Of a DNA stretch of 64,000 nt, positions 35,456-53,554 are shown piece by piece. Under the pieces are notes generated by a model. It was not told the DNA's origin. It saw nothing but the letters and a program-made list of their open reading frames with translations, and searched no databases. This DNA is from Cyanobacteria bacterium J06581_3 (GTDB taxonomy: Bacteria > Cyanobacteriota > Cyanobacteriia > Phormidesmidales > Phormidesmidaceae), in NCBI GenBank assembly GCA_038531675.1, contig JBCBBK010000008.1, forward strand, positions 30,483 through 94,482. Direction: 5' to 3'. Both the position numbers and the translations under genes were made by a program. Within the stretch, counting starts at the first letter, position 1, and each line of letters opens with the position of its first letter.

Positions 35456-38400
35456 TTAGACAATCGATGTAGAGCCAAGCAAACTCTTAAATAGAGCTGA
35501 GAGTAGTTCGTCTCGGCAATTTTTCATGTCTGCATTTGTAAAAGCACCTTTTTCAGCGTAGTGCCTGATTGTTTCGTCAGCGTTCGATAGATACTCTTTC
35601 AAATTTCCGTTGTAGCGACCCTGATGCAGCAGAAGCTTTTTCAGCGTTTCTTTGAGTCGATAACCGCCGTGGAGCATTTTCAGAATTTTGTCAATATCTG
35701 TCAAAACAGTCCCTTGTGCCTCAGGCGAGACGATTTGTAGACGAAGTACCATACAAGCTGCTGAAAATATTTTCCCCAAGTCCGCAAGCTCAGTGACCCG
35801 GCGTGGATACAGATCTCTAACAGAGCTAATCTCTTGCGAGGTATATAGTTCTGGTTCTGCTTCATCGCTGAACAAGCGAGTGATTTTACGAACGCTGGTA
35901 GGCTTTCCGTCGACTTCCTGCCTTTCTTGGGTGAACACACAGCCATCTTCGGCGATCGCCCATGCCATATTCAGTAGCCTGATAGACTTCTTGAGCTTGG
36001 CATCCCACTGTATTTCTACATTAGGCGCTTCTACTTCAAATTCACTCGCTGTATCGCTACACAGCAAATACAATCCTCTAGCGAAAAAGAGATAGCAGGC
36101 ATTGGCACCAAACAGATAAATATTCTGAGTAGGATGGTTAGGTGTCAGTTTTGGTAGCTCCTGAATACGAACACCTAGCAGGGAAATATCCAGTGTCAAG
36201 AAATCATCTTCAGGTTGGTTAGGTCTAACCTGATCAGGTCCTCTAACCTCAAAAATTGCTGGTATTTTCTCAACCGTGTACCTGCCTTCTTTGTTGTATT
36301 CATAATCATCGAAGTCCGAATACGCATAATCATCGGAATCCGAAAGGCCGCTTTTTTCTTTAATATCGTAGTAGCACTGTCGTCCCGTCTCAGCATATGT
36401 CAGTAAGGCATGATCTCTTAATTGTCTTGCCCATCGTAAGCATCCGTCTCGGCTCAGCGTTGTACTCGCATTGAACAGCTGGACATTATCCGCTTGTGCG
36501 TAGGCTGCCATCAGGTAGGTATAAACCTGCATAGAACAGTAACAGGCATAGACTTCACTATTGCCATCAGCCGCAGTATACAACCGTGCCTTTTCGATGA
36601 GGAATAGCCTTCCCCAGTGAATAGAAGCCTCTGTGCGCTGCTGTCCAACAAATCTCTCGGTCGGCAGTACAGATTCATCTCTCACTCTCGGGACAAAGTT
36701 AGGAAAGAAAAGAAGGAGCTTAGCTCTGGCAAAGTAAATTCTTCCAAGCAGTTCGTAGTGAGGGCTAAAGGTTCCCTGCGACGGCTCACGAATAATGGTG
36801 TACTTTCTAAGCCGAACTTCCATGTGCTGCTGGGCTTCTTCTAGTTTTGCCCACGCCTTTTGGATTAAAACCTGACGATTGATATCAGATGTACAGTCCA
36901 GCAGTAGATACTCACAGCTAAGATCATCTTCTCGATCGTACAGATAATAGTAGCTAGCAACGCAAATAAGATATCGAACAATCAGCGCACCCGAAAAAAC
37001 CTCAAAGGACTGGCTACCTGGCACAAAGTTGCCCTGGTTCACATCTAGTCCCTGCCGTACAAAACTTTCCAAAACAGTCAGTGACTTGAGATAGTAATAG
37101 CTAGATCGATATGCTCCCTCATCCAAGAGAGCTTCAGCGATAGATAAGTAGGCATCGAAGCAAATATAGGGATCTTCTTTTGTCAGCTCTTTTCGCTGCT
37201 CTAAAATGTCTCCGATCACGTCTTTGTGCAAGGTTCCAATCATTGCCATAGAAGAAAATGGATATCGCCTTAGATAGGACCAGGCTCTATCTAAAACGAG
37301 CAGCTTTTCCGTTCGCTGACACAGCTGAGCAATGTACTTGTCAGGATCGACACCTGTATCTCTAACAGCCTGTAGCCGAGCCTGTAGGGCTGCTTGAGCC
37401 TGCGCGATCAAAAAATCGAAGCCGCAGAAGTCTCCATGGCCAGTCGGGTCGGCGAAGGAATTATCTTCATAAACCGACTCGCTGCGGTCAGACATTTGCA
37501 GCGCTTCTCCGACAGCATCGTTATGACACAGCTGTACCAAGCTATGCGCCCACACAGGCGAAGGGACATTGTCTCTAATAATTTGCTGGGTAGAAGCGAC
37601 ATCGTGAGCAATTGGGAAAAAGGCGTTTACACAGGGAATGTCTCTCAGCAACATCAGATTAATCACCTTGATCACATGGGATAGCGTACCGCCGACGCCT
37701 GTACTGGTCAGAGTGAAATCTACTCTCTGGTTGATACTGTTTGACCGCTCCGCATTGCTGGAGAACTGATCGAAGATATCTTCGACAGCAGGACGGTAGG
37801 TAATCGGCACCTTGATGTAAAACTCAACCGCGATTTTGACAGATTCTTGAGAAGCCAGTTCGTGATCTCCGGGCCCCGCAACGCTGTCTAATCCAACAGC
37901 ACGTCTGTTTTCTAATCTCTGTAGCGCTGAGTTTAACAGCGGCAGGTAAAAATCGTCTATCTCAATCGTATTGACGCTTCTAGCAGCAAATGGTAGCGGC
38001 CCGCAGGCTTCTATCGTGACTCGTTTGAGGTAAATCGGAAACTGGTTAGTCAGTCGCTCTCTGCTCACAACCGTCTGCGCTAATTTTTTAACGAAAGCCG
38101 ACTGCAGGTAATGATGAATATAGGGATGCTCAGTTGTAGTGTCCGGTAAGGAGTCATTTGTGTTGCCGCTGCGTATCAACAGTCGACGGACTTCTTCTTT
38201 TGCTTTAAGCGTAAGATCGAGGATAGTGTCGCCCTTGCCAGGGGACGTCACTCGGTCGTTTTCCACATGACTCTGTTTATTTGGTAAATAGTCGAGTGCT
38301 GTTGCAACTGTCGATTCAATTAAACCATCAATATCTTCTAAGGTTTTGATAGTCTCACGACTACTAGAAAAATCGAGCCCGACGGCCTCTTTGTAGGCTC

Positions 38401-38869
38401 TAAAAATAACTTCGTAATTTTCTACGCCACCAGCTAGTCTCAAGTTCAACAGCATCTGCCTGAGTAATGTCAGGCCGTCTCTCCTGGGTAGACCCAGCTG
38501 CCTGCGTTCTTGAGGTGTCAGCTCTATCAGCTTGTGCAAGGCGATCAAAACATCTTCAGTGTTCAGAACGCGGCTATAGTCTTCGTTTCCTTGTTGGTAG
38601 TCCTCTCTGAGGTTTTGGCGTAGCTCAGTAAGCATCGTTACGATGCTGCCAGTTGTGACAGTACTACTGCTTTCAATAACGCCTTTCCAGCCTGCTTTTT
38701 GGTCGAACAGATGTTTGGCTGTTCTGCGAAAGTTTCGGTTGCCGACTCGACTTGCAATCTGCGAAACATTAGGTTCGCCGCCTGATTTTCGGCTCATGGC
38801 AAGGCGACCGCAGAGATATTTGTATAAGTGATAGACGCGCCAGCTATCGAAGTTTCCGGAATCAGACAT
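35456..38869 (-). CDS. Large hypothetical protein (1137 aa), helical/TPR-like C-terminal half
   Basis: Uninterrupted 3.4-kb ORF with no recognisable catalytic motif. Helical segments such as DAYLSIAEALLDEGAYRSSYYYL and HYELLGRIYFARAKLL. Confidence 0.85.
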   Translation of the reverse strand: MSDSGNFDSWRVYHLYKYLCGRLAMSRKSGGEPNVSQIASRVGNRNFRRTAKHLFDQKAGWKGVIESSSTVTTGSIVTMLTELRQNLREDYQQGNEDYSRVLNTEDVLIALHKLIELTPQERRQLGLPRRDGLTLLRQMLLNLRLAGGVENYEVIFRAYKEAVGLDFSSSRETIKTLEDIDGLIESTVATALDYLPNKQSHVENDRVTSPGKGDTILDLTLKAKEEVRRLLIRSGNTNDSLPDTTTEHPYIHHYLQSAFVKKLAQTVVSRERLTNQFPIYLKRVTIEACGPLPFAARSVNTIEIDDFYLPLLNSALQRLENRRAVGLDSVAGPGDHELASQESVKIAVEFYIKVPITYRPAVEDIFDQFSSNAERSNSINQRVDFTLTSTGVGGTLSHVIKVINLMLLRDIPCVNAFFPIAHDVASTQQIIRDNVPSPVWAHSLVQLCHNDAVGEALQMSDRSESVYEDNSFADPTGHGDFCGFDFLIAQAQAALQARLQAVRDTGVDPDKYIAQLCQRTEKLLVLDRAWSYLRRYPFSSMAMIGTLHKDVIGDILEQRKELTKEDPYICFDAYLSIAEALLDEGAYRSSYYYLKSLTVLESFVRQGLDVNQGNFVPGSQSFEVFSGALIVRYLICVASYYYLYDREDDLSCEYLLLDCTSDINRQVLIQKAWAKLEEAQQHMEVRLRKYTIIREPSQGTFSPHYELLGRIYFARAKLLLFFPNFVPRVRDESVLPTERFVGQQRTEASIHWGRLFLIEKARLYTAADGNSEVYACYCSMQVYTYLMAAYAQADNVQLFNASTTLSRDGCLRWARQLRDHALLTYAETGRQCYYDIKEKSGLSDSDDYAYSDFDDYEYNKEGRYTVEKIPAIFEVRGPDQVRPNQPEDDFLTLDISLLGVRIQELPKLTPNHPTQNIYLFGANACYLFFARGLYLLCSDTASEFEVEAPNVEIQWDAKLKKSIRLLNMAWAIAEDGCVFTQERQEVDGKPTSVRKITRLFSDEAEPELYTSQEISSVRDLYPRRVTELADLGKIFSAACMVLRLQIVSPEAQGTVLTDIDKILKMLHGGYRLKETLKKLLLHQGRYNGNLKEYLSNADETIRHYAEKGAFTNADMKNCRDELLSALFKSLLGSTSIV

Positions 38870-39129
38870 TTATTGTGAAGAATCAGTAAATTCCCAGAGA
38901 AGTTTTGAGCGTTTGTTTATCTTCTCTAAAAACTTCTATGAGCAAAATTTCTCACGATAAGACAGTCCTAATAGTCTTCAATGCTACTTTTTCACGAAAA
39001 AACTAGCATTCAGTACCTTTTGATACCAAATAGTTGGATTCGTATATCCACGGTTGACAATGTCCGTACTTAATGTCTGCACACGGCCTATCTTTTCTTA
39101 CACAGGGCACAGAGGGAAAATAAGTAGAA

Positions 39130-39271
39130 CCGGGAAATAAAGCAGGTGGAATCGCAAACTTCCCGGCTGCAGTTAGACACCGGAGGTAAATCCAATGACC
39201 AAACTATAGTATCTCGATCAAGCACATTTCCATTTCAGCCTGAGGAAAATTTCTCATGAAAGCGTAACGCT
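39130..39271 (+). other. Candidate structured leader/ncRNA with two micro-ORFs (MTKL 39195-39209; MKA 39256-39267)
   Basis: ccgggaa (39130) / ttcccgg (39160) stem; GGAGG at 39182 lies 8 nt before ATG; GAGGA sits in hairpin tgagga-aaat-ttctca before the second ATG; the second stop is the loop of agcg-taa-cgct. Confidence 0.5.
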
Positions 39272-39335
39272 ACAGACTTGCTGAAAACCTGAAGTGAGTC
39301 TGTGTCATTCAACCCAAATTAAGAGGACACAATCA

Positions 39336-39539
39336 ATGCTTGCTCAAACACCCGATTCTCATCATCTACATCCACATCACATCGCTTGCCCGCACTGTGG
39401 TCATCACACAGTCGTGGTGCAAGACGAAAACATCTACGTTTGTTTGAGATGTGGTTGGCGTCGTAATATTGCTTCGGAGGCTTTGCCGCTTCCGCTGGCA
39501 ATTATCACGACTATTTTGCTTCTGGTGATCTTACTGTAA
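39336..39539 (+). CDS. Small Zn-ribbon protein with C-terminal TM anchor (67 aa)
   Basis: RBS agagga; CPHCG...CLRCG; C-terminal LPLPLAIITTILLLVILL. Confidence 0.75.
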   Translation: MLAQTPDSHHLHPHHIACPHCGHHTVVVQDENIYVCLRCGWRRNIASEALPLPLAIITTILLLVILL

Positions 39540-39589
39540 TCATCTAATAATTCTTCACCGAAGCTGATTAGTCTGAACGATTAGATACT

Positions 39590-39624
39590 AAAGGAGAGCG
39601 ATCAAAGTGTGATCGCTCTCCTTT
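39590..39624. terminator. Bidirectional terminator between the Zn-ribbon gene and the nuclease-like gene
   Basis: 15-bp stem aaaggagagcgatca / tgatcgctctccttt. Confidence 0.85.
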
Positions 39625-39686
39625 TCTTTAGCTATATATTTCTGACTGCGCCGACGCCCTTAGCTTGCACATTGAATAATTTCCTT

Positions 39687-40316
39687 CTATACACAGCTAG
39701 TACCCACCAAAACAGCCTGCACTAAAATTCGCATCAGAACATCCACATCTTCGGGTACGCGATAGCTTTCTAGCCCTATATAAATATGCTGGGCGCTTCT
39801 GTCTAGCAACGCAAATTCCCAAAGCCTGCCCGTCGTTACGGAACCTAATAGTGTTGGCTGCTGCGGTGTCCGCTCCCATTTATCGAGTGCGATTAACTCA
39901 GCGACGAGCTGAGTCATGCCATAGTCCAAATCCTGGCGCTTCGCTTCTATGACTAAAAGCTCGCTTTGCCCTCTAAATAGGTAGTCTAAATAGCCCTGTA
40001 GCTGACTACTTACGGTGAGTGGATATTCAATTCGCAACTTTGCCTTGGTGTAATAAACGAGCTCTGTCGCAATTCTAGAAATTAAGATTTCACGGCGGGA
40101 GGTTTCATTGGATAAATCAACGTAGGGAAGCACTTCCTCGATTCGCAACCTAAGCTCTTCCAGTCGATTCAGCTCACCTGCATATTCAGAAAGATCGAGC
40201 TTCTGCTTAGTTAGCTGATATCCAAAGGATTCAGCGAGCTCATCAGCTGGGATTTTGAGTTCAAAGAATTTACTAAACGTGTAGGACTTATCAGGATTCA
40301 GGACATCTATGCCCAT
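39687..40316 (-). CDS. PD-(D/E)XK restriction-endonuclease-like protein (cyanobacterial family)
   Basis: NETSRREILI, IEYPL....LQGYLDYL...LLVIEAKRQD..GMTQLVAELIAL, GSVTTGRLWEF. Confidence 0.7.
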   Translation of the reverse strand: MGIDVLNPDKSYTFSKFFELKIPADELAESFGYQLTKQKLDLSEYAGELNRLEELRLRIEEVLPYVDLSNETSRREILISRIATELVYYTKAKLRIEYPLTVSSQLQGYLDYLFRGQSELLVIEAKRQDLDYGMTQLVAELIALDKWERTPQQPTLLGSVTTGRLWEFALLDRSAQHIYIGLESYRVPEDVDVLMRILVQAVLVGTSCV

Positions 40317-53330: not shown

Positions 53331-53388
53331 AAAAAAATTCCCTAGTGCTCAAACGAGCAGCCAGGGAATTGTCAGGGTGCATCTACCA
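53331..53388 (-). ncRNA. NsiR1-like small RNA, copy 1
   Basis: 5' TGGTAGATGCACCCTGA, then hairpin aattccct/agggaatt and a U tract; TCCTGA at 53417-53422 about 35 nt upstream. NsiR1 identity is from recall, not from a search. Confidence 0.65.
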
Positions 53389-53482
53389 GTTAACTATTCC
53401 CAAAAGAATCCTGGTGTCAGGACGAAAGTAAGCAAAAAATCCAGGCAAACGGTCTAGCGAGAATTCCCAGCGAAAATCACCC

Positions 53483-53554
53483 AAAAAAAATCCTCAGCCA
53501 CCTGCAAGAAAGTACGTACAGGAAGGCTGAGGAAACATCAGGGTGCATCTACCA
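53483..53554 (-). ncRNA. NsiR1-like small RNA, copy 2
   Basis: Identical 17-nt 5' end, hairpin tcctcagcc/ggctgagga and a U8 tract; TCCTGA(53584-53589)-N18-GTACTA promoter. Confidence 0.65.

What the first reader, a model, noticed from the sequence alone, without database searches (positions are those of the whole stretch)
39130..39271. Structured leader encoding two ultra-short peptides behind strong Shine-Dalgarno sites
Seen: GGAGG-N8-ATG ACC AAA CTA TAG (MTKL) and GAGGA...ATG AAA GCG TAA (MKA). Each SD can be sequestered (gga-ggtaaa-tcc; tgagga-aaat-ttctca), the second stop is a hairpin loop, and an upstream 7-bp stem ccgggaa/ttcccgg encloses ggtg, which could pair with cacc (39178-39181) as a pseudoknot. 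Two well-spaced SD-ATG-stop units in 90 nt look non-random. Inference: a ribosome-sensing attenuator for the Zn-ribbon gene, a ribosome-binding sRNA, or a micropeptide source.
Basis: partly seen in the sequence, partly recalled or inferred. Interest (0 to 1): 0.7.

Follow-up and report, generated by a model that had tools for sequence, protein, structure and literature searches.

The report
Conserved antisense RNA behind apparent micro-ORFs
The two tiny "genes" are really in the sequence, but comparison with about 30 related cyanobacterial loci shows that the conserved folded RNA in the first half lies on the opposite strand, probably a small antisense or divergent RNA made from a conserved promoter next to a zinc-ribbon membrane-protein gene; this is a new lineage-specific regulatory RNA candidate, not a micropeptide source.

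Summary
The letters are as described: GGAGG 39182-86, ATG 39195 MTKL TAG, GAGGA 39242-46, and the second ATG at 39256, not 39257. One such pair per window is only marginally unusual (5/100 shuffles).

The region lies between a 1137-aa orphan gene (minus strand) and a 67-aa Zn-ribbon/TM gene (plus strand). These two genes are divergent neighbours in every related locus found.

- **Distribution:** the 5' half is conserved, once per genome, only in one Phormidesmis/"Leptolyngbya"-like genus. A reduced form occurs in Nodosilinea. No Rfam family matches.
- **Strand of the structure:** Its non-Watson-Crick cells are A.C on the plus strand 34 times and G.U 6 times, so it pairs as G.U on the minus strand. 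A second minus-strand hairpin contains CAU and CCUCC, the mirror of ATG and the SD.
- **The "stop + TA" block:** on the minus strand this is a -10 box (T20 A20 Y T20 A18 T15 of 20), with a purine 7 nt downstream.
- **Unit 2:** it is patchy, present in 9 of 13 near relatives and absent further out.
- **Plus-strand features:** hairpin H4 and a local hairpin that sequesters the main SD, with compensatory changes.

Best reading: a roughly 90-nt minus-strand RNA, either a cis-antisense sRNA or the 5' end of the big gene's leader. Unit 1 may be a ribosome-loading site that it masks. No RNA-seq could be consulted.

The parts
39206..39211 (-). Predicted -10 box TACTAT of a minus-strand promoter. It overlaps the uORF1 stop TAG (39207-09). 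The plus-strand partner hexamer is TATAGT (39205-10).
   Evidence: Position counts over 20 distinct homologues: T20 A20 Y20 T20 A18 T15, with a purine (G in 15 of 20) 7 nt downstream. The tool's only promoter-like hit in 38700-39800 lies here on the minus strand.
39175..39200 (-). P2m, the 5' hairpin of the minus-strand RNA: GUCAUUGGA-UUUACC-UCCGGUGUC. Predicted TSS is G at 39199. It contains CAU and CCUCC, the complements of the uORF1 ATG and SD1.
   Evidence: Minus fold is better than plus in 19/24 sequences (summed -184 vs -107 kcal/mol). U.G pairs are common in model-aligned sequences (UG:9, UG:11, GU:11). See also the fold.
39128..39168 (-).
   Evidence: Covariation: 9/11 pairs on A7 and 12/14 pairs on A11 have compensatory changes, with 0/500 shuffles reaching the score. 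Wobble asymmetry: plus-strand A.C 34 vs G.U 6. Mean ddG is -4.3 to -4.6 kcal/mol in favour of the minus strand, against -1.05 expected from composition.
39112..39127 (-). U-rich tract after P1m (UUCUACUUAUUUUCCC), a possible weak terminator tail. On the plus strand it holds the -10-like GAAAAT (39116-21) of a possible mRNA promoter with TSS near 39128.
   Evidence: By my reading of the sequences (no separate count was computed), a NANAAT hexamer with A2 and T6 lies 3-7 nt before P1 in nearly all homologues. In Nodosilinea, UUAUUUUU directly follows the stem.
39182..39209 (+). SD1 (GGAGG) plus a 4-codon uORF1 (MTKL, TAG). It may be a ribosome-loading site if the plus mRNA starts upstream of it.
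   Evidence: SD and ATG are kept in every homologue of the genus-level clade. Stops arise independently of the -10 box in L044 (TAA), L063 (TGA), L048/L061 (TGA) and L045-47 (TGA). Translation was not tested.
39242..39267 (+). SD-like GAGGA plus 3-codon mini-ORF2 (MKA, TAA).
   Evidence: The ATG is present in 9/13 near relatives and absent in L044, L049, L063, L064 and all distant relatives. The purine tract RRGGAC is kept with or without the ATG.
39272..39303 (+). H4, a conserved plus-strand hairpin of the Zn-ribbon mRNA leader.
   Evidence: Compensatory changes. The plus fold is better than the minus fold in all 14 homologues tested.
39304..39328 (+). Local hairpin that sequesters the main SD: GUCAUUC (39304-10) pairs with GAGGAC (39323-28).
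   Evidence: Unpaired probability of the SD is 0.10. Every near relative has a pyrimidine partner of different sequence (CUCCU:AGGAG, CUCUCC:GGAGAG, CUCUU:AAGAG, UCUCC:GGAGA, UCGCCU:AGGAGA).
39336..39539 (+). 67-aa His-rich Zn-ribbon protein with a C-terminal TM helix. This is the regulated gene.
   Evidence: ORF list. Only weak Zn-ribbon Pfam hits. Homologues occur in 27/46 genomes of the genus.
35456..38869 (-). 1137-aa orphan gene, the divergent partner found in every locus.
   Evidence: tblastn of its N-terminus hits every locus next to the Zn-ribbon gene. No Pfam, NCBIfam, PADLOC or PDB match.
39013..39026 (.). GTA-N8-TAC palindrome (NtcA-like) at a conserved distance from the element.
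   Evidence: Present at -164 to -182 from SD1 in most loci. No canonical -10 box at 20-24 nt on either strand.

Best explanation
**Overall reading.** The 5' half of the finding (39112-39211) is the template of a conserved, structured RNA read from the minus strand.

**The minus-strand RNA.**
- A -10 box, TACTAT (39211-39206), contains the complement of the uORF1 stop codon. It places the start at about G39199.
- The RNA opens with a 5' hairpin, P2m. Its loop and 3' arm carry CCUCC, and its stem carries CAU.
- A long hairpin, P1m (39168-39128), follows, and then a U-rich tract. The whole is about 90 nt.
- It is either a discrete sRNA or the 5' end of the long structured leader of the divergent 1137-aa gene.

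**The plus-strand leader.** The 3' half (39217-39335) belongs to the Zn-ribbon mRNA leader. Its conserved features are hairpin H4 and a small hairpin that hides the main Shine-Dalgarno.

**Proposed mechanism (inferred, not shown).**
- If the mRNA starts at the conserved NANAAT box before P1 (TSS near 39128), its first 72 nt are fully complementary to the minus RNA.
- SD1 and the start codon then form an upstream ribosome-loading site for a structurally closed main RBS.
- The antisense RNA masks that site, in the manner of tisB/IstR-1 or hok/Sok.
- Alternatively, the symmetric -10 box fires in both directions (TSS 39199 and 39217, 18 bp apart). The two RNAs then do not overlap, and unit 1 is never on an mRNA.

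**Shown here:** conservation, covariation, strand-specific wobble, the -10 pattern and SD sequestration.

**Inferred:** transcription of either strand, termination after P1m, translation of uORF1 and the direction of regulation.
For: **Distribution.**
- Model R1 hits only genus g1, always just upstream of the Zn-ribbon gene. It has 0 hits in about 384 other cyanobacteria.
- Model R2 gives one hit per genome in 16/46 genomes of the genus.
- No Rfam family matches.

**Structure and strand.**
- P1 covaries: 9/11 pairs have compensatory changes, 0/500 shuffles.
- P2m plus P1m on the minus strand: 18/23 pairs have compensatory changes, 0/500 shuffles, and many G.U types.
- On the ungapped P1 diagonal of 31 distinct sequences there are 348 WC cells, 34 plus-strand A.C and 6 G.U.
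- The minus fold is better in 23 sequences and the plus fold in 5. Mean difference is -4.3 to -4.6 kcal/mol, against -1.05 from composition alone.
- Control hairpin H4 is always better on the plus strand.
- P2m: minus better in 19/24.
- The 93-nt minus RNA has z = -3.22. The whole minus intergenic RNA has z = -3.30, against -0.32 for the plus strand. The plus leader has z = -0.40.

**Promoter.**
- -10 counts are T20 A20 Y T20 A18 T15, with a purine at +7.
- The helix P2m starts exactly at the predicted +1.

**Correlated loss.** Subgroup L045-48/L061 lacks the minus -10 box, and its P1 is plus-favoured.

**Other support.**
- Lineages L020/21/23 lost the stop (CAA) but kept a TANNNT hexamer.
- Bidirectional terminators lie between the two divergent genes in several lineages.
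- The main SD is sequestered in all near relatives by partners of different sequence.
- The 18-bp geometry matches published bidirectional promoters (PMC10268837).
Against: - No transcript on either strand is shown.
- The U-rich tract after P1m is a poor terminator in many members, for example CAUCAUUGUAAUC. It reads at least as well as a plus-strand -10 box.
- GGAGG and ATG are invariant without covariation. That fits a real RBS on the plus strand better than a mere hairpin.
- Short uORF stops persist where the minus -10 box is absent (L048, L061 and L045-47) or lies elsewhere (L044 and L063). The plus-strand reading is therefore not excluded.
- Sequences are phylogenetically related, so the counts overstate the number of independent events.
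- The upstream region is palindrome-rich and folds on both strands (mean z -2.2 plus, -3.0 minus).
Confidence: 0.6

Rival explanations
1. This is a purely plus-strand leader in which two translated micro-ORFs sense ribosomes and switch SD-sequestering structures, or attenuate transcription, of the Zn-ribbon gene. No functional minus-strand RNA exists.
For: - SD1 and the ATG are invariant at proper spacing in every homologue of the genus-level clade.
- Early stops recur in different forms: TAA, TAG or TGA at codons 3, 5 or 7.
- The main SD is sequestered.
- A conserved NANAAT box lies just before P1.
- Unit 2 keeps ATG-AAA-NNN-stop in 9 of 13 near relatives, with a TAA/TGA exchange.
Against: - P1 and P2 carry a minus-strand wobble signature.
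- The conserved block around the stop extends beyond it and fits a -10 box in 20/20 sequences. A stop explains 18/20.
- The peptides are not conserved.
- No terminator follows the uORFs.
- Masking the uORF1 footprint leaves predicted main-SD accessibility essentially unchanged in most homologues.
- Unit 2 is absent from the distant group and from 4 near relatives.
- Nodosilinea keeps P1 and P2 but has no SD1.
Confidence: 0.15
2. A bidirectional promoter only. The symmetric -10 box drives the 1137-aa gene leftwards, through a roughly 330-nt structured 5' UTR that holds P2m and P1m. It drives the Zn-ribbon mRNA rightwards from about A39217. The RNAs do not overlap. There is no antisense control, and unit 1 is never on an mRNA.
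For: - Predicted TSSs at 39199 and 39217 are exactly 18 bp apart, with reciprocal -11A and -7T.
- The gene pair is divergent in every locus, with an intergenic length of about 450-520 nt.
- The whole minus intergenic RNA has z = -3.30.
- In many homologues a variable hairpin, H2, starts 1-7 nt after the predicted plus TSS.
Against: - Strong bidirectional terminators sit between P1 and the big gene in L010, L013, L064/66 and L067/68. These would cut such a leader.
- This model does not explain why GGAGG-N8-ATG and the NANAAT box before P1 are conserved.
- In Nodosilinea, P1m is followed directly by UUAUUUUU.
Confidence: 0.2
3. DNA-level element. The inverted repeats are operator sites for a regulator of the divergent gene pair, and no RNA structure is selected.
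For: - The region is palindrome-rich and lies between divergent genes.
- A conserved GTA-N8-TAC box lies nearby.
Against: - The arms covary instead of keeping a fixed half-site sequence.
- The mismatch spectrum is strand-asymmetric (34 A.C vs 6 G.U). Double-stranded DNA recognition does not predict this.
Confidence: 0.05

Closest known systems
tisB/IstR-1 of E. coli (type I toxin-antitoxin with a ribosome standby site; PMC6690012)
   Same: - The gene encodes a small membrane protein whose own RBS is closed by structure.
- An accessible ribosome-binding region lies about 100-140 nt upstream, next to a 5' structure.
- A small RNA of about 75-90 nt from the opposite strand is complementary to that upstream site.
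   Different: - The upstream site here is a full SD plus start plus stop, not a bare single-stranded stretch.
- The protein has a Zn-ribbon domain and is 67-76 aa.
- Toxicity, standby loading and the sRNA itself are all untested.
- The module is single-copy and always linked to a 1137-aa gene.
- No LexA-type control is seen.
hok/mok/Sok of plasmid R1 (own knowledge)
   Same: - The antisense RNA starts inside a leader ORF and covers its SD and start codon.
- The antisense RNA has a single-stranded or hairpin 5' part followed by a terminal hairpin.
- The SD of the main gene is sequestered.
- In L006/8/9 the leader ORF runs on and overlaps the main start, as mok does.
   Different: - In most members the leader ORF ends about 110-130 nt before the main RBS, so direct translational coupling is impossible.
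- No fold-back 5'-3' pairing or processing was examined.
As1_flv4 of Synechocystis sp. PCC 6803 (PMC3460422) and msoT1/msoA1 of Microcystis (PMC12390103)
   Same: These are cyanobacterial precedents for an antisense RNA over the 5' part of an mRNA (As1_flv4) and for a candidate type I toxin-antitoxin pair (msoT1/msoA1).
   Different: There is no sequence or structural similarity, and the genes and lineages differ. Both were shown experimentally, whereas this case is computational only.
Bidirectional sigma-70 promoters with divergent TSSs 18 bp apart (Warman et al. 2021, as cited in PMC10268837; PMC12825309)
   Same: The -10 box is symmetric (minus TAYTAT, plus NATART). The -11A and -7T positions pair reciprocally. 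The predicted TSSs at 39199 and 39217 are 18 bp apart.
   Different: Only the sequence geometry was tested. Firing in either direction is unknown.
Leader-peptide attenuators (trpL, ermCL, cat/cmlA leaders; own knowledge)
   Same: A short ORF with a strong SD lies upstream of a gene whose SD can be sequestered.
   Different: There is no conserved peptide or regulatory codons, no terminator or antiterminator overlapped by the ORF, and the ORF lies far from the switch region.

Membership tests
Any Rfam family (riboswitch, leader, sRNA) | Match to a curated covariance model | tested here: not met
   There was no hit in 38800-39700, even at E <= 10, other than chance-level matches. There was no hit in homologues L021 and L065. 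The only hits in the window are two NsiR1 copies at 53331-53554.
Ribosome-mediated leader-peptide attenuator | Leader ORF with a conserved peptide or regulatory codons | tested here: not met
   The peptides are MTKL, MTDP, MTHP, MTQT, MISK, MTYE, MPPN, MPPD, MILR, MHFE, MNSP, MY and others.
Ribosome-mediated leader-peptide attenuator | Alternative structures (terminator/antiterminator, or SD/anti-SD) overlapped by the ribosome footprint on the leader ORF | tested here: not met
   No terminator follows either ORF (and sequence reading). Masking SD1 to stop+12 leaves the unpaired probability of the main SD essentially unchanged in most of the 17 homologues. The main SD was mis-located in some of them.
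Ribosome-mediated leader-peptide attenuator | Leader ORF is translated on the same transcript | not testable with these tools
Type I toxin-antitoxin / cis-antisense sRNA pair | Antisense RNA gene (promoter, structure, terminator) overlapping the 5' part of the mRNA | tested here: inconclusive
   The -10 box is conserved in 20/20 sequences. Two hairpins carry a minus-strand wobble signature and covariation. The U-rich tail is only moderate. Overlap depends on the unmapped plus TSS. Expression was not tested.
Type I toxin-antitoxin / cis-antisense sRNA pair | Structurally sequestered RBS of the small-protein gene | tested here: met
   A local anti-SD:SD hairpin is present in all 13 near relatives, with different partner sequences. 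In distant relatives a CUCCU lies 5' of H4.
Type I toxin-antitoxin / cis-antisense sRNA pair | Small hydrophobic toxic protein | not testable with these tools
   The protein is 67-76 aa with one C-terminal TM helix but also a Zn-ribbon. Toxicity is unknown.
Type I toxin-antitoxin / cis-antisense sRNA pair | Self-contained two-gene module, often multi-copy or mobile | tested here: not met
   There is one copy per genome. It is always paired with the 1137-aa gene.
Bidirectional promoter (18-bp type) | Symmetric -10 box with reciprocal -11A and -7T, and TSSs 18 bp apart | tested here: met
   This holds at sequence level only. The minus hexamer is TAYTAT and the plus hexamer is NATART. In the window the predicted TSSs are 39199 and 39217. 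The criterion is taken from PMC10268837.
NtcA-activated (class II) promoter | GTA-N8-TAC centred at -41.5, with TAN3T about 22 nt downstream | tested here: not met
   The box is conserved. No consistent TAN3T lies at 20-24 nt on either strand.

The most novel reading that the evidence does not exclude
This would be a tisB/IstR-1- or hok/Sok-like antisense switch in filamentous cyanobacteria. A roughly 90-nt cis-antisense sRNA, made from a promoter embedded in a start-stop-like mini-ORF, masks an upstream ribosome-loading site. That keeps a Zn-ribbon membrane protein silent behind a closed RBS. The whole unit is hard-wired to a 1137-aa orphan protein as a three-part accessory module of unknown function (stress, defence or toxin-like).
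Probability: 0.2. Interest if true: 0.7.

Novelty: new member of a known kind. Interest (0 to 1): 0.42.

Why it matters
- **A warning for sequence reading.** A tidy "SD-ATG-stop" pattern can be the mirror image of a promoter and hairpin on the other strand. The ratio of plus-strand A.C to G.U mismatches is a cheap way to tell which strand a helix serves.
- **A new RNA candidate.** If the minus-strand RNA is real, it adds an unannotated, lineage-specific regulatory RNA to a poorly studied group (Phormidesmis/"Leptolyngbya"/Nodosilinea). It is absent from Rfam.
- **A handle on two orphan genes.** The RNA is tied to a conserved pair of orphan genes: a 1137-aa protein with no recognisable domain and a His-rich Zn-ribbon membrane protein.
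- **A possible parallel with type I toxin-antitoxin control.** Antisense control of a small membrane protein behind a closed RBS would resemble those systems. A first candidate in cyanobacteria was proposed only in 2025 (PMC12390103).

Tried and rejected
1. **Known RNA family.** Rfam at gathering and E-value thresholds gave nothing on the window or on homologues.
3. **Pseudoknot ggtg:cacc.** Relatives show GGTG:CACC in 2, CCAAT:ATTGG in 2 and nothing in 1. Rejected as a conserved feature.
4. **P1-loop pairing with a UUUGAUY stretch before the anti-SD in distant relatives.** About 7 of 11 show 5-7 bp. It is inconsistent, so it was left open and not claimed.
5. **NtcA site inside unit 1 (GTA-N8-GAC at 39186-99).** The spacing is N9 in relatives. 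Rejected.
6. **NtcA-type promoter at the conserved GTA-N8-TAC box.** No -10 box at the right distance.
7. **Ribosome-footprint masking as a test of coupling.** There was no effect. The main SD was mis-assigned in some rows, so this is weak negative evidence.
8. **RNAalifold on the MAFFT alignment of whole leaders.** It found only P1. MAFFT alignments of P1 were not in register, so per-sequence diagonal counts and model-based alignments were used instead.
9. **Function of the neighbouring proteins.** Pfam, NCBIfam, PADLOC and PDB sequence searches gave nothing for the 1137-aa protein.
10. **Earlier notes of this scan.** They held only first-reader remarks on the module.
Full report
**1. What is in the window.**

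The finding lies in a 467-nt spacer between two divergent genes.
- One is a 1137-aa ORF on the minus strand (35456-38869).
- The other is a 67-aa ORF on the plus strand (39336-39539). It encodes a His-rich Zn-ribbon followed by a transmembrane helix.

- GGAGG 39182-86, an 8-nt spacer, then ATG ACC AAA CTA TAG at 39195-39209.
- GAGGA 39242-46, then ATG AAA GCG TAA at 39256-39267.
- ccgggaa 39130-36 pairs with ttcccgg 39160-66.

Taken alone, this is only marginally non-random.
- GGAGG-N5-10-ATG occurs 4 times in the window, against 10.3 expected.
- SD-ATG-short-ORF units occur 5 times, against 12.0 +/- 4.6 in shuffles.
- A pair of units within 100 nt turns up in 5 of 100 shuffles.
- The plus-strand leader is not unusually stable (z = -0.40).
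- No Rfam family matches, even at E <= 10.

**2. Relatives.**

The Zn-ribbon protein has homologues in 27 of 46 genomes of the same genus. More were found in metagenomes and in named genomes. These include Phormidesmis/Phormidesmidales MAGs, Leptolyngbya sp. Heron Island J, L. cf. ectocarpi LEGE 11479, Nodosilinea, Tildeniella and Trichocoleus.

In every locus the 1137-aa gene is the divergent neighbour, with a spacer of about 450-520 nt.

A covariance model of the 5' core (R1) hit only this genus, always just upstream of the Zn-ribbon gene. It found nothing in about 384 other cyanobacterial genomes. Model R2 finds exactly one copy per carrier genome. The element is therefore a locus-bound, lineage-specific feature and not a dispersed family.

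**3. Unit 1 and unit 2 across relatives.**

Unit 1:
- SD1 and its ATG are kept in every member of the genus-level clade.
- In most members exactly three further codons and a stop follow the ATG.
- The peptide is different every time: MTKL, MTDP, MTHP, MTQT, MISK, MTYE, MTQR, MPPN, MPPD, MTFE, MILR, MHFE, MNSP.
- ORF length also varies: 2 codons (L044, L063, L059), 6 (L045-47), 12 (L053), 14 (L020/21/23), and 50-60 codons overlapping the main start (L006/8/9).
- Nodosilinea keeps the hairpins but has no SD1.
- A functional micropeptide or arrest peptide is therefore excluded.

Unit 2:
- It is present in 9 of 13 near relatives.
- Its ATG reads ATA or GTA in four of them, and CTG or ACG in all distant relatives.
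- The purine tract RRGGAC persists either way.
- I regard unit 2 as incidental or auxiliary.

The gcg-taa-cgc loop and the ggtg:cacc pseudoknot are not conserved.

**4. The conserved helices belong to the other strand.**

It covaries strongly: 9 of 11 pairs have compensatory changes, and 0 of 500 shuffles reach the score. Its imperfections are one-sided.
- On the ungapped diagonal of 31 distinct sequences there are 348 Watson-Crick cells, 6 plus-strand G.U cells and 34 plus-strand A.C cells. An A.C on the plus strand is a G.U on the minus strand.
- The minus-strand hairpin is more stable in 23 sequences and the plus-strand hairpin in 5. The mean difference is -4.3 to -4.6 kcal/mol. Composition-matched shuffles give only -1.05.
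- The control hairpin H4, further downstream, shows the opposite. It is always better on the plus strand.

A second hairpin, P2m, forms on the minus strand.
- It pairs GUCAU, the complement of ATGAC, with RUGRC, the complement of the linker.
- It also pairs GGA with UCC, leaving UUUACC in the loop.
- It is better on the minus strand in 19 of 24 sequences.
- Nodosilinea has an equivalent hairpin with a different loop.

A model of P2m plus P1m (R2) aligned the homologues with 18 of 23 pairs showing compensatory changes, 0 of 500 shuffles, and abundant G.U types.

Stability scores agree.
- The 93-nt minus-strand RNA of the window has z = -3.22.
- The whole minus-strand spacer has z = -3.30, against -0.32 for its plus strand.
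- Across 20 homologues the upstream spacer is structured on both strands, with mean z of -2.2 on the plus strand and -3.0 on the minus strand.

**5. The "stop" is a -10 box.**

I aligned the sequences on the CAT and read the block after uORF1 on the minus strand. Over 20 distinct sequences it reads T20 A20 Y20 T20 A18 T15. A purine (G in 15 of 20) lies 7 nt downstream, and TG is frequent upstream.

This explains several things at once.
- It explains why conservation runs beyond the stop, as TA[AG]TA[TC]A.
- It explains why the distance from ATG to the stop has no indels.
- It explains why ATGAC is conserved: the G of GTCAT is the predicted +1, and P2m begins there.

The three genomes that lost the stop (CAA) still have TANNNT.

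Conversely, subgroup L045-48/L061 lacks the minus -10 box. It is also the only group in which P1 is plus-favoured. I read this as a correlated loss.

The promoter scan's only hit in 38700-39800 is on the minus strand at this place.

The hexamer is symmetric. Its plus-strand partner, TATAGT (39205-10), predicts a TSS at A39217. That is exactly 18 bp from the minus TSS at 39199, the geometry described for bacterial bidirectional promoters (PMC10268837).

**6. What is plus-strand.**

H4 (39272-39303) is a plus-strand hairpin.

Immediately after it, GUCAUUC (39304-10) pairs with the main SD GAGGAC (39323-28). The unpaired probability of the SD is 0.10.

Every near relative has such a local hairpin, built from different sequences: CUCCU:AGGAG, CUCCUC:GAGGAG, CUCUCC:GGAGAG, CUCUU:AAGAG, UCUCC:GGAGA, UUCUC:GAGAA and UCGCCU:AGGAGA. 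In distant relatives a CUCCU sits just 5' of H4.

The Zn-ribbon gene is thus translationally closed by default.

A well-conserved NANAAT hexamer (A2 and T6 kept) lies 3-7 nt before P1 in nearly all homologues. In the window it is GAAAAT at 39116-21. It could be the mRNA promoter, with a TSS near 39128. It could also be part of the U-rich tail after P1m.

**7. Mechanism.**

The structured minus-strand RNA is shown by comparative evidence. Transcription has not been shown.

Two architectures remain.
- **(a) Overlap.** The mRNA starts at about 39128. Its first 72 nt, including SD1 and AUG, are complementary to a roughly 90-nt antisense RNA. Unit 1 would be a ribosome-loading site for the closed main RBS, and the antisense RNA would mask it. 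This works like tisB/IstR-1 (PMC6690012) or hok/Sok.
- **(b) No overlap.** The symmetric -10 box fires both ways. P2m and P1m open the long leader of the 1137-aa gene, or a divergent sRNA. Unit 1 is then never on an mRNA.

Evidence for (a):
- GGAGG and ATG are invariant.
- The NANAAT box is conserved.
- Early stops arise independently of the -10 box in L044 (TAA), L063 (TGA), L048/L061 (TGA) and L045-47 (TGA).
- Strong bidirectional terminators sit between P1 and the big gene in several lineages.
- In Nodosilinea, UUAUUUUU comes directly after P1m.

Evidence for (b):
- It needs only one promoter.
- H2 hairpins begin 1-7 nt after the predicted plus TSS.

Masking a ribosome on uORF1 left predicted main-SD accessibility essentially unchanged in most homologues. 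Classical attenuation is therefore not supported.

**8. Comparison and novelty.**

The arrangement resembles type I toxin-antitoxin and antisense loci. It fails the membership test for a self-contained module, because it is single-copy and always linked to the 1137-aa gene. The key features (expression, toxicity) could not be tested.

It is not a leader-peptide attenuator and not a member of any Rfam family.

I file it as a new, lineage-specific member of a known kind: an antisense or divergent small RNA next to a structured leader. Interest is moderate.

**9. Limits.**

- The sequences are related, so counts overstate independent events.
- The region is palindrome-rich.
- The TSSs are predictions.

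Noticed in passing
window 39013-39026 (and L007-L052 at -164 to -182 from SD1): A GTA-N8-TAC palindrome (NtcA-like) is kept at a fixed distance in most loci. A GTGG...CCAC hairpin lies beside it and a TTT run follows 25-27 nt after. No TAN3T lies at 20-24 nt on either strand. In L010 the palindrome forms the stem and loop of a bidirectional terminator.
   Followed up: partly
L010, L013, L064/L066, L067/L068 (spacer between the divergent genes): Strong A-run/hairpin/T-run bidirectional terminators sit between two genes that are transcribed away from each other. This is odd unless an extra transcript runs there.
   Followed up: partly
L024-L031 and own genome G000:C3:361052-361147: Paralogous Zn-ribbon proteins (open frames of about 125-197 aa) carry a different conserved upstream motif: CCGTAGTTAT.CGG...GTGAGATTA...GTGATAGTACG. 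No Rfam family matches it.
   Followed up: partly
L006, L008, L009: In this subgroup the upstream ORF has lost its early stop. It runs about 50-60 codons and ends 12 nt inside the Zn-ribbon ORF, in a mok/hok-like overlap. The P1-linker-SD-ATG unit also appears twice.
   Followed up: no
window 53331-53388 and 53483-53554 (-): Two tandem NsiR1 sRNA genes (Rfam RF02399, 50.2 and 49.5 bits).
   Followed up: no
window 39593-39629: A perfect 12-bp hairpin followed by TTTTCTTT lies between the Zn-ribbon gene and the convergent 209-aa PD-(D/E)XK gene. It is a shared terminator that the consensus scan did not report.
   Followed up: no
window 35456-38869 (-): The 1137-aa protein has no match in Pfam, NCBIfam, PADLOC or PDB sequences. 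It is nevertheless conserved (47-64% identity over the N-terminal 400 aa in the genome loci; shorter metagenome fragments down to 34%) and always paired with the Zn-ribbon gene.
   Followed up: partly
L033 (linker between P1 and SD1): A threefold tandem repeat, CTGCAATTTCACA, is inserted in the linker. The element tolerates 26 extra bases there.
   Followed up: no
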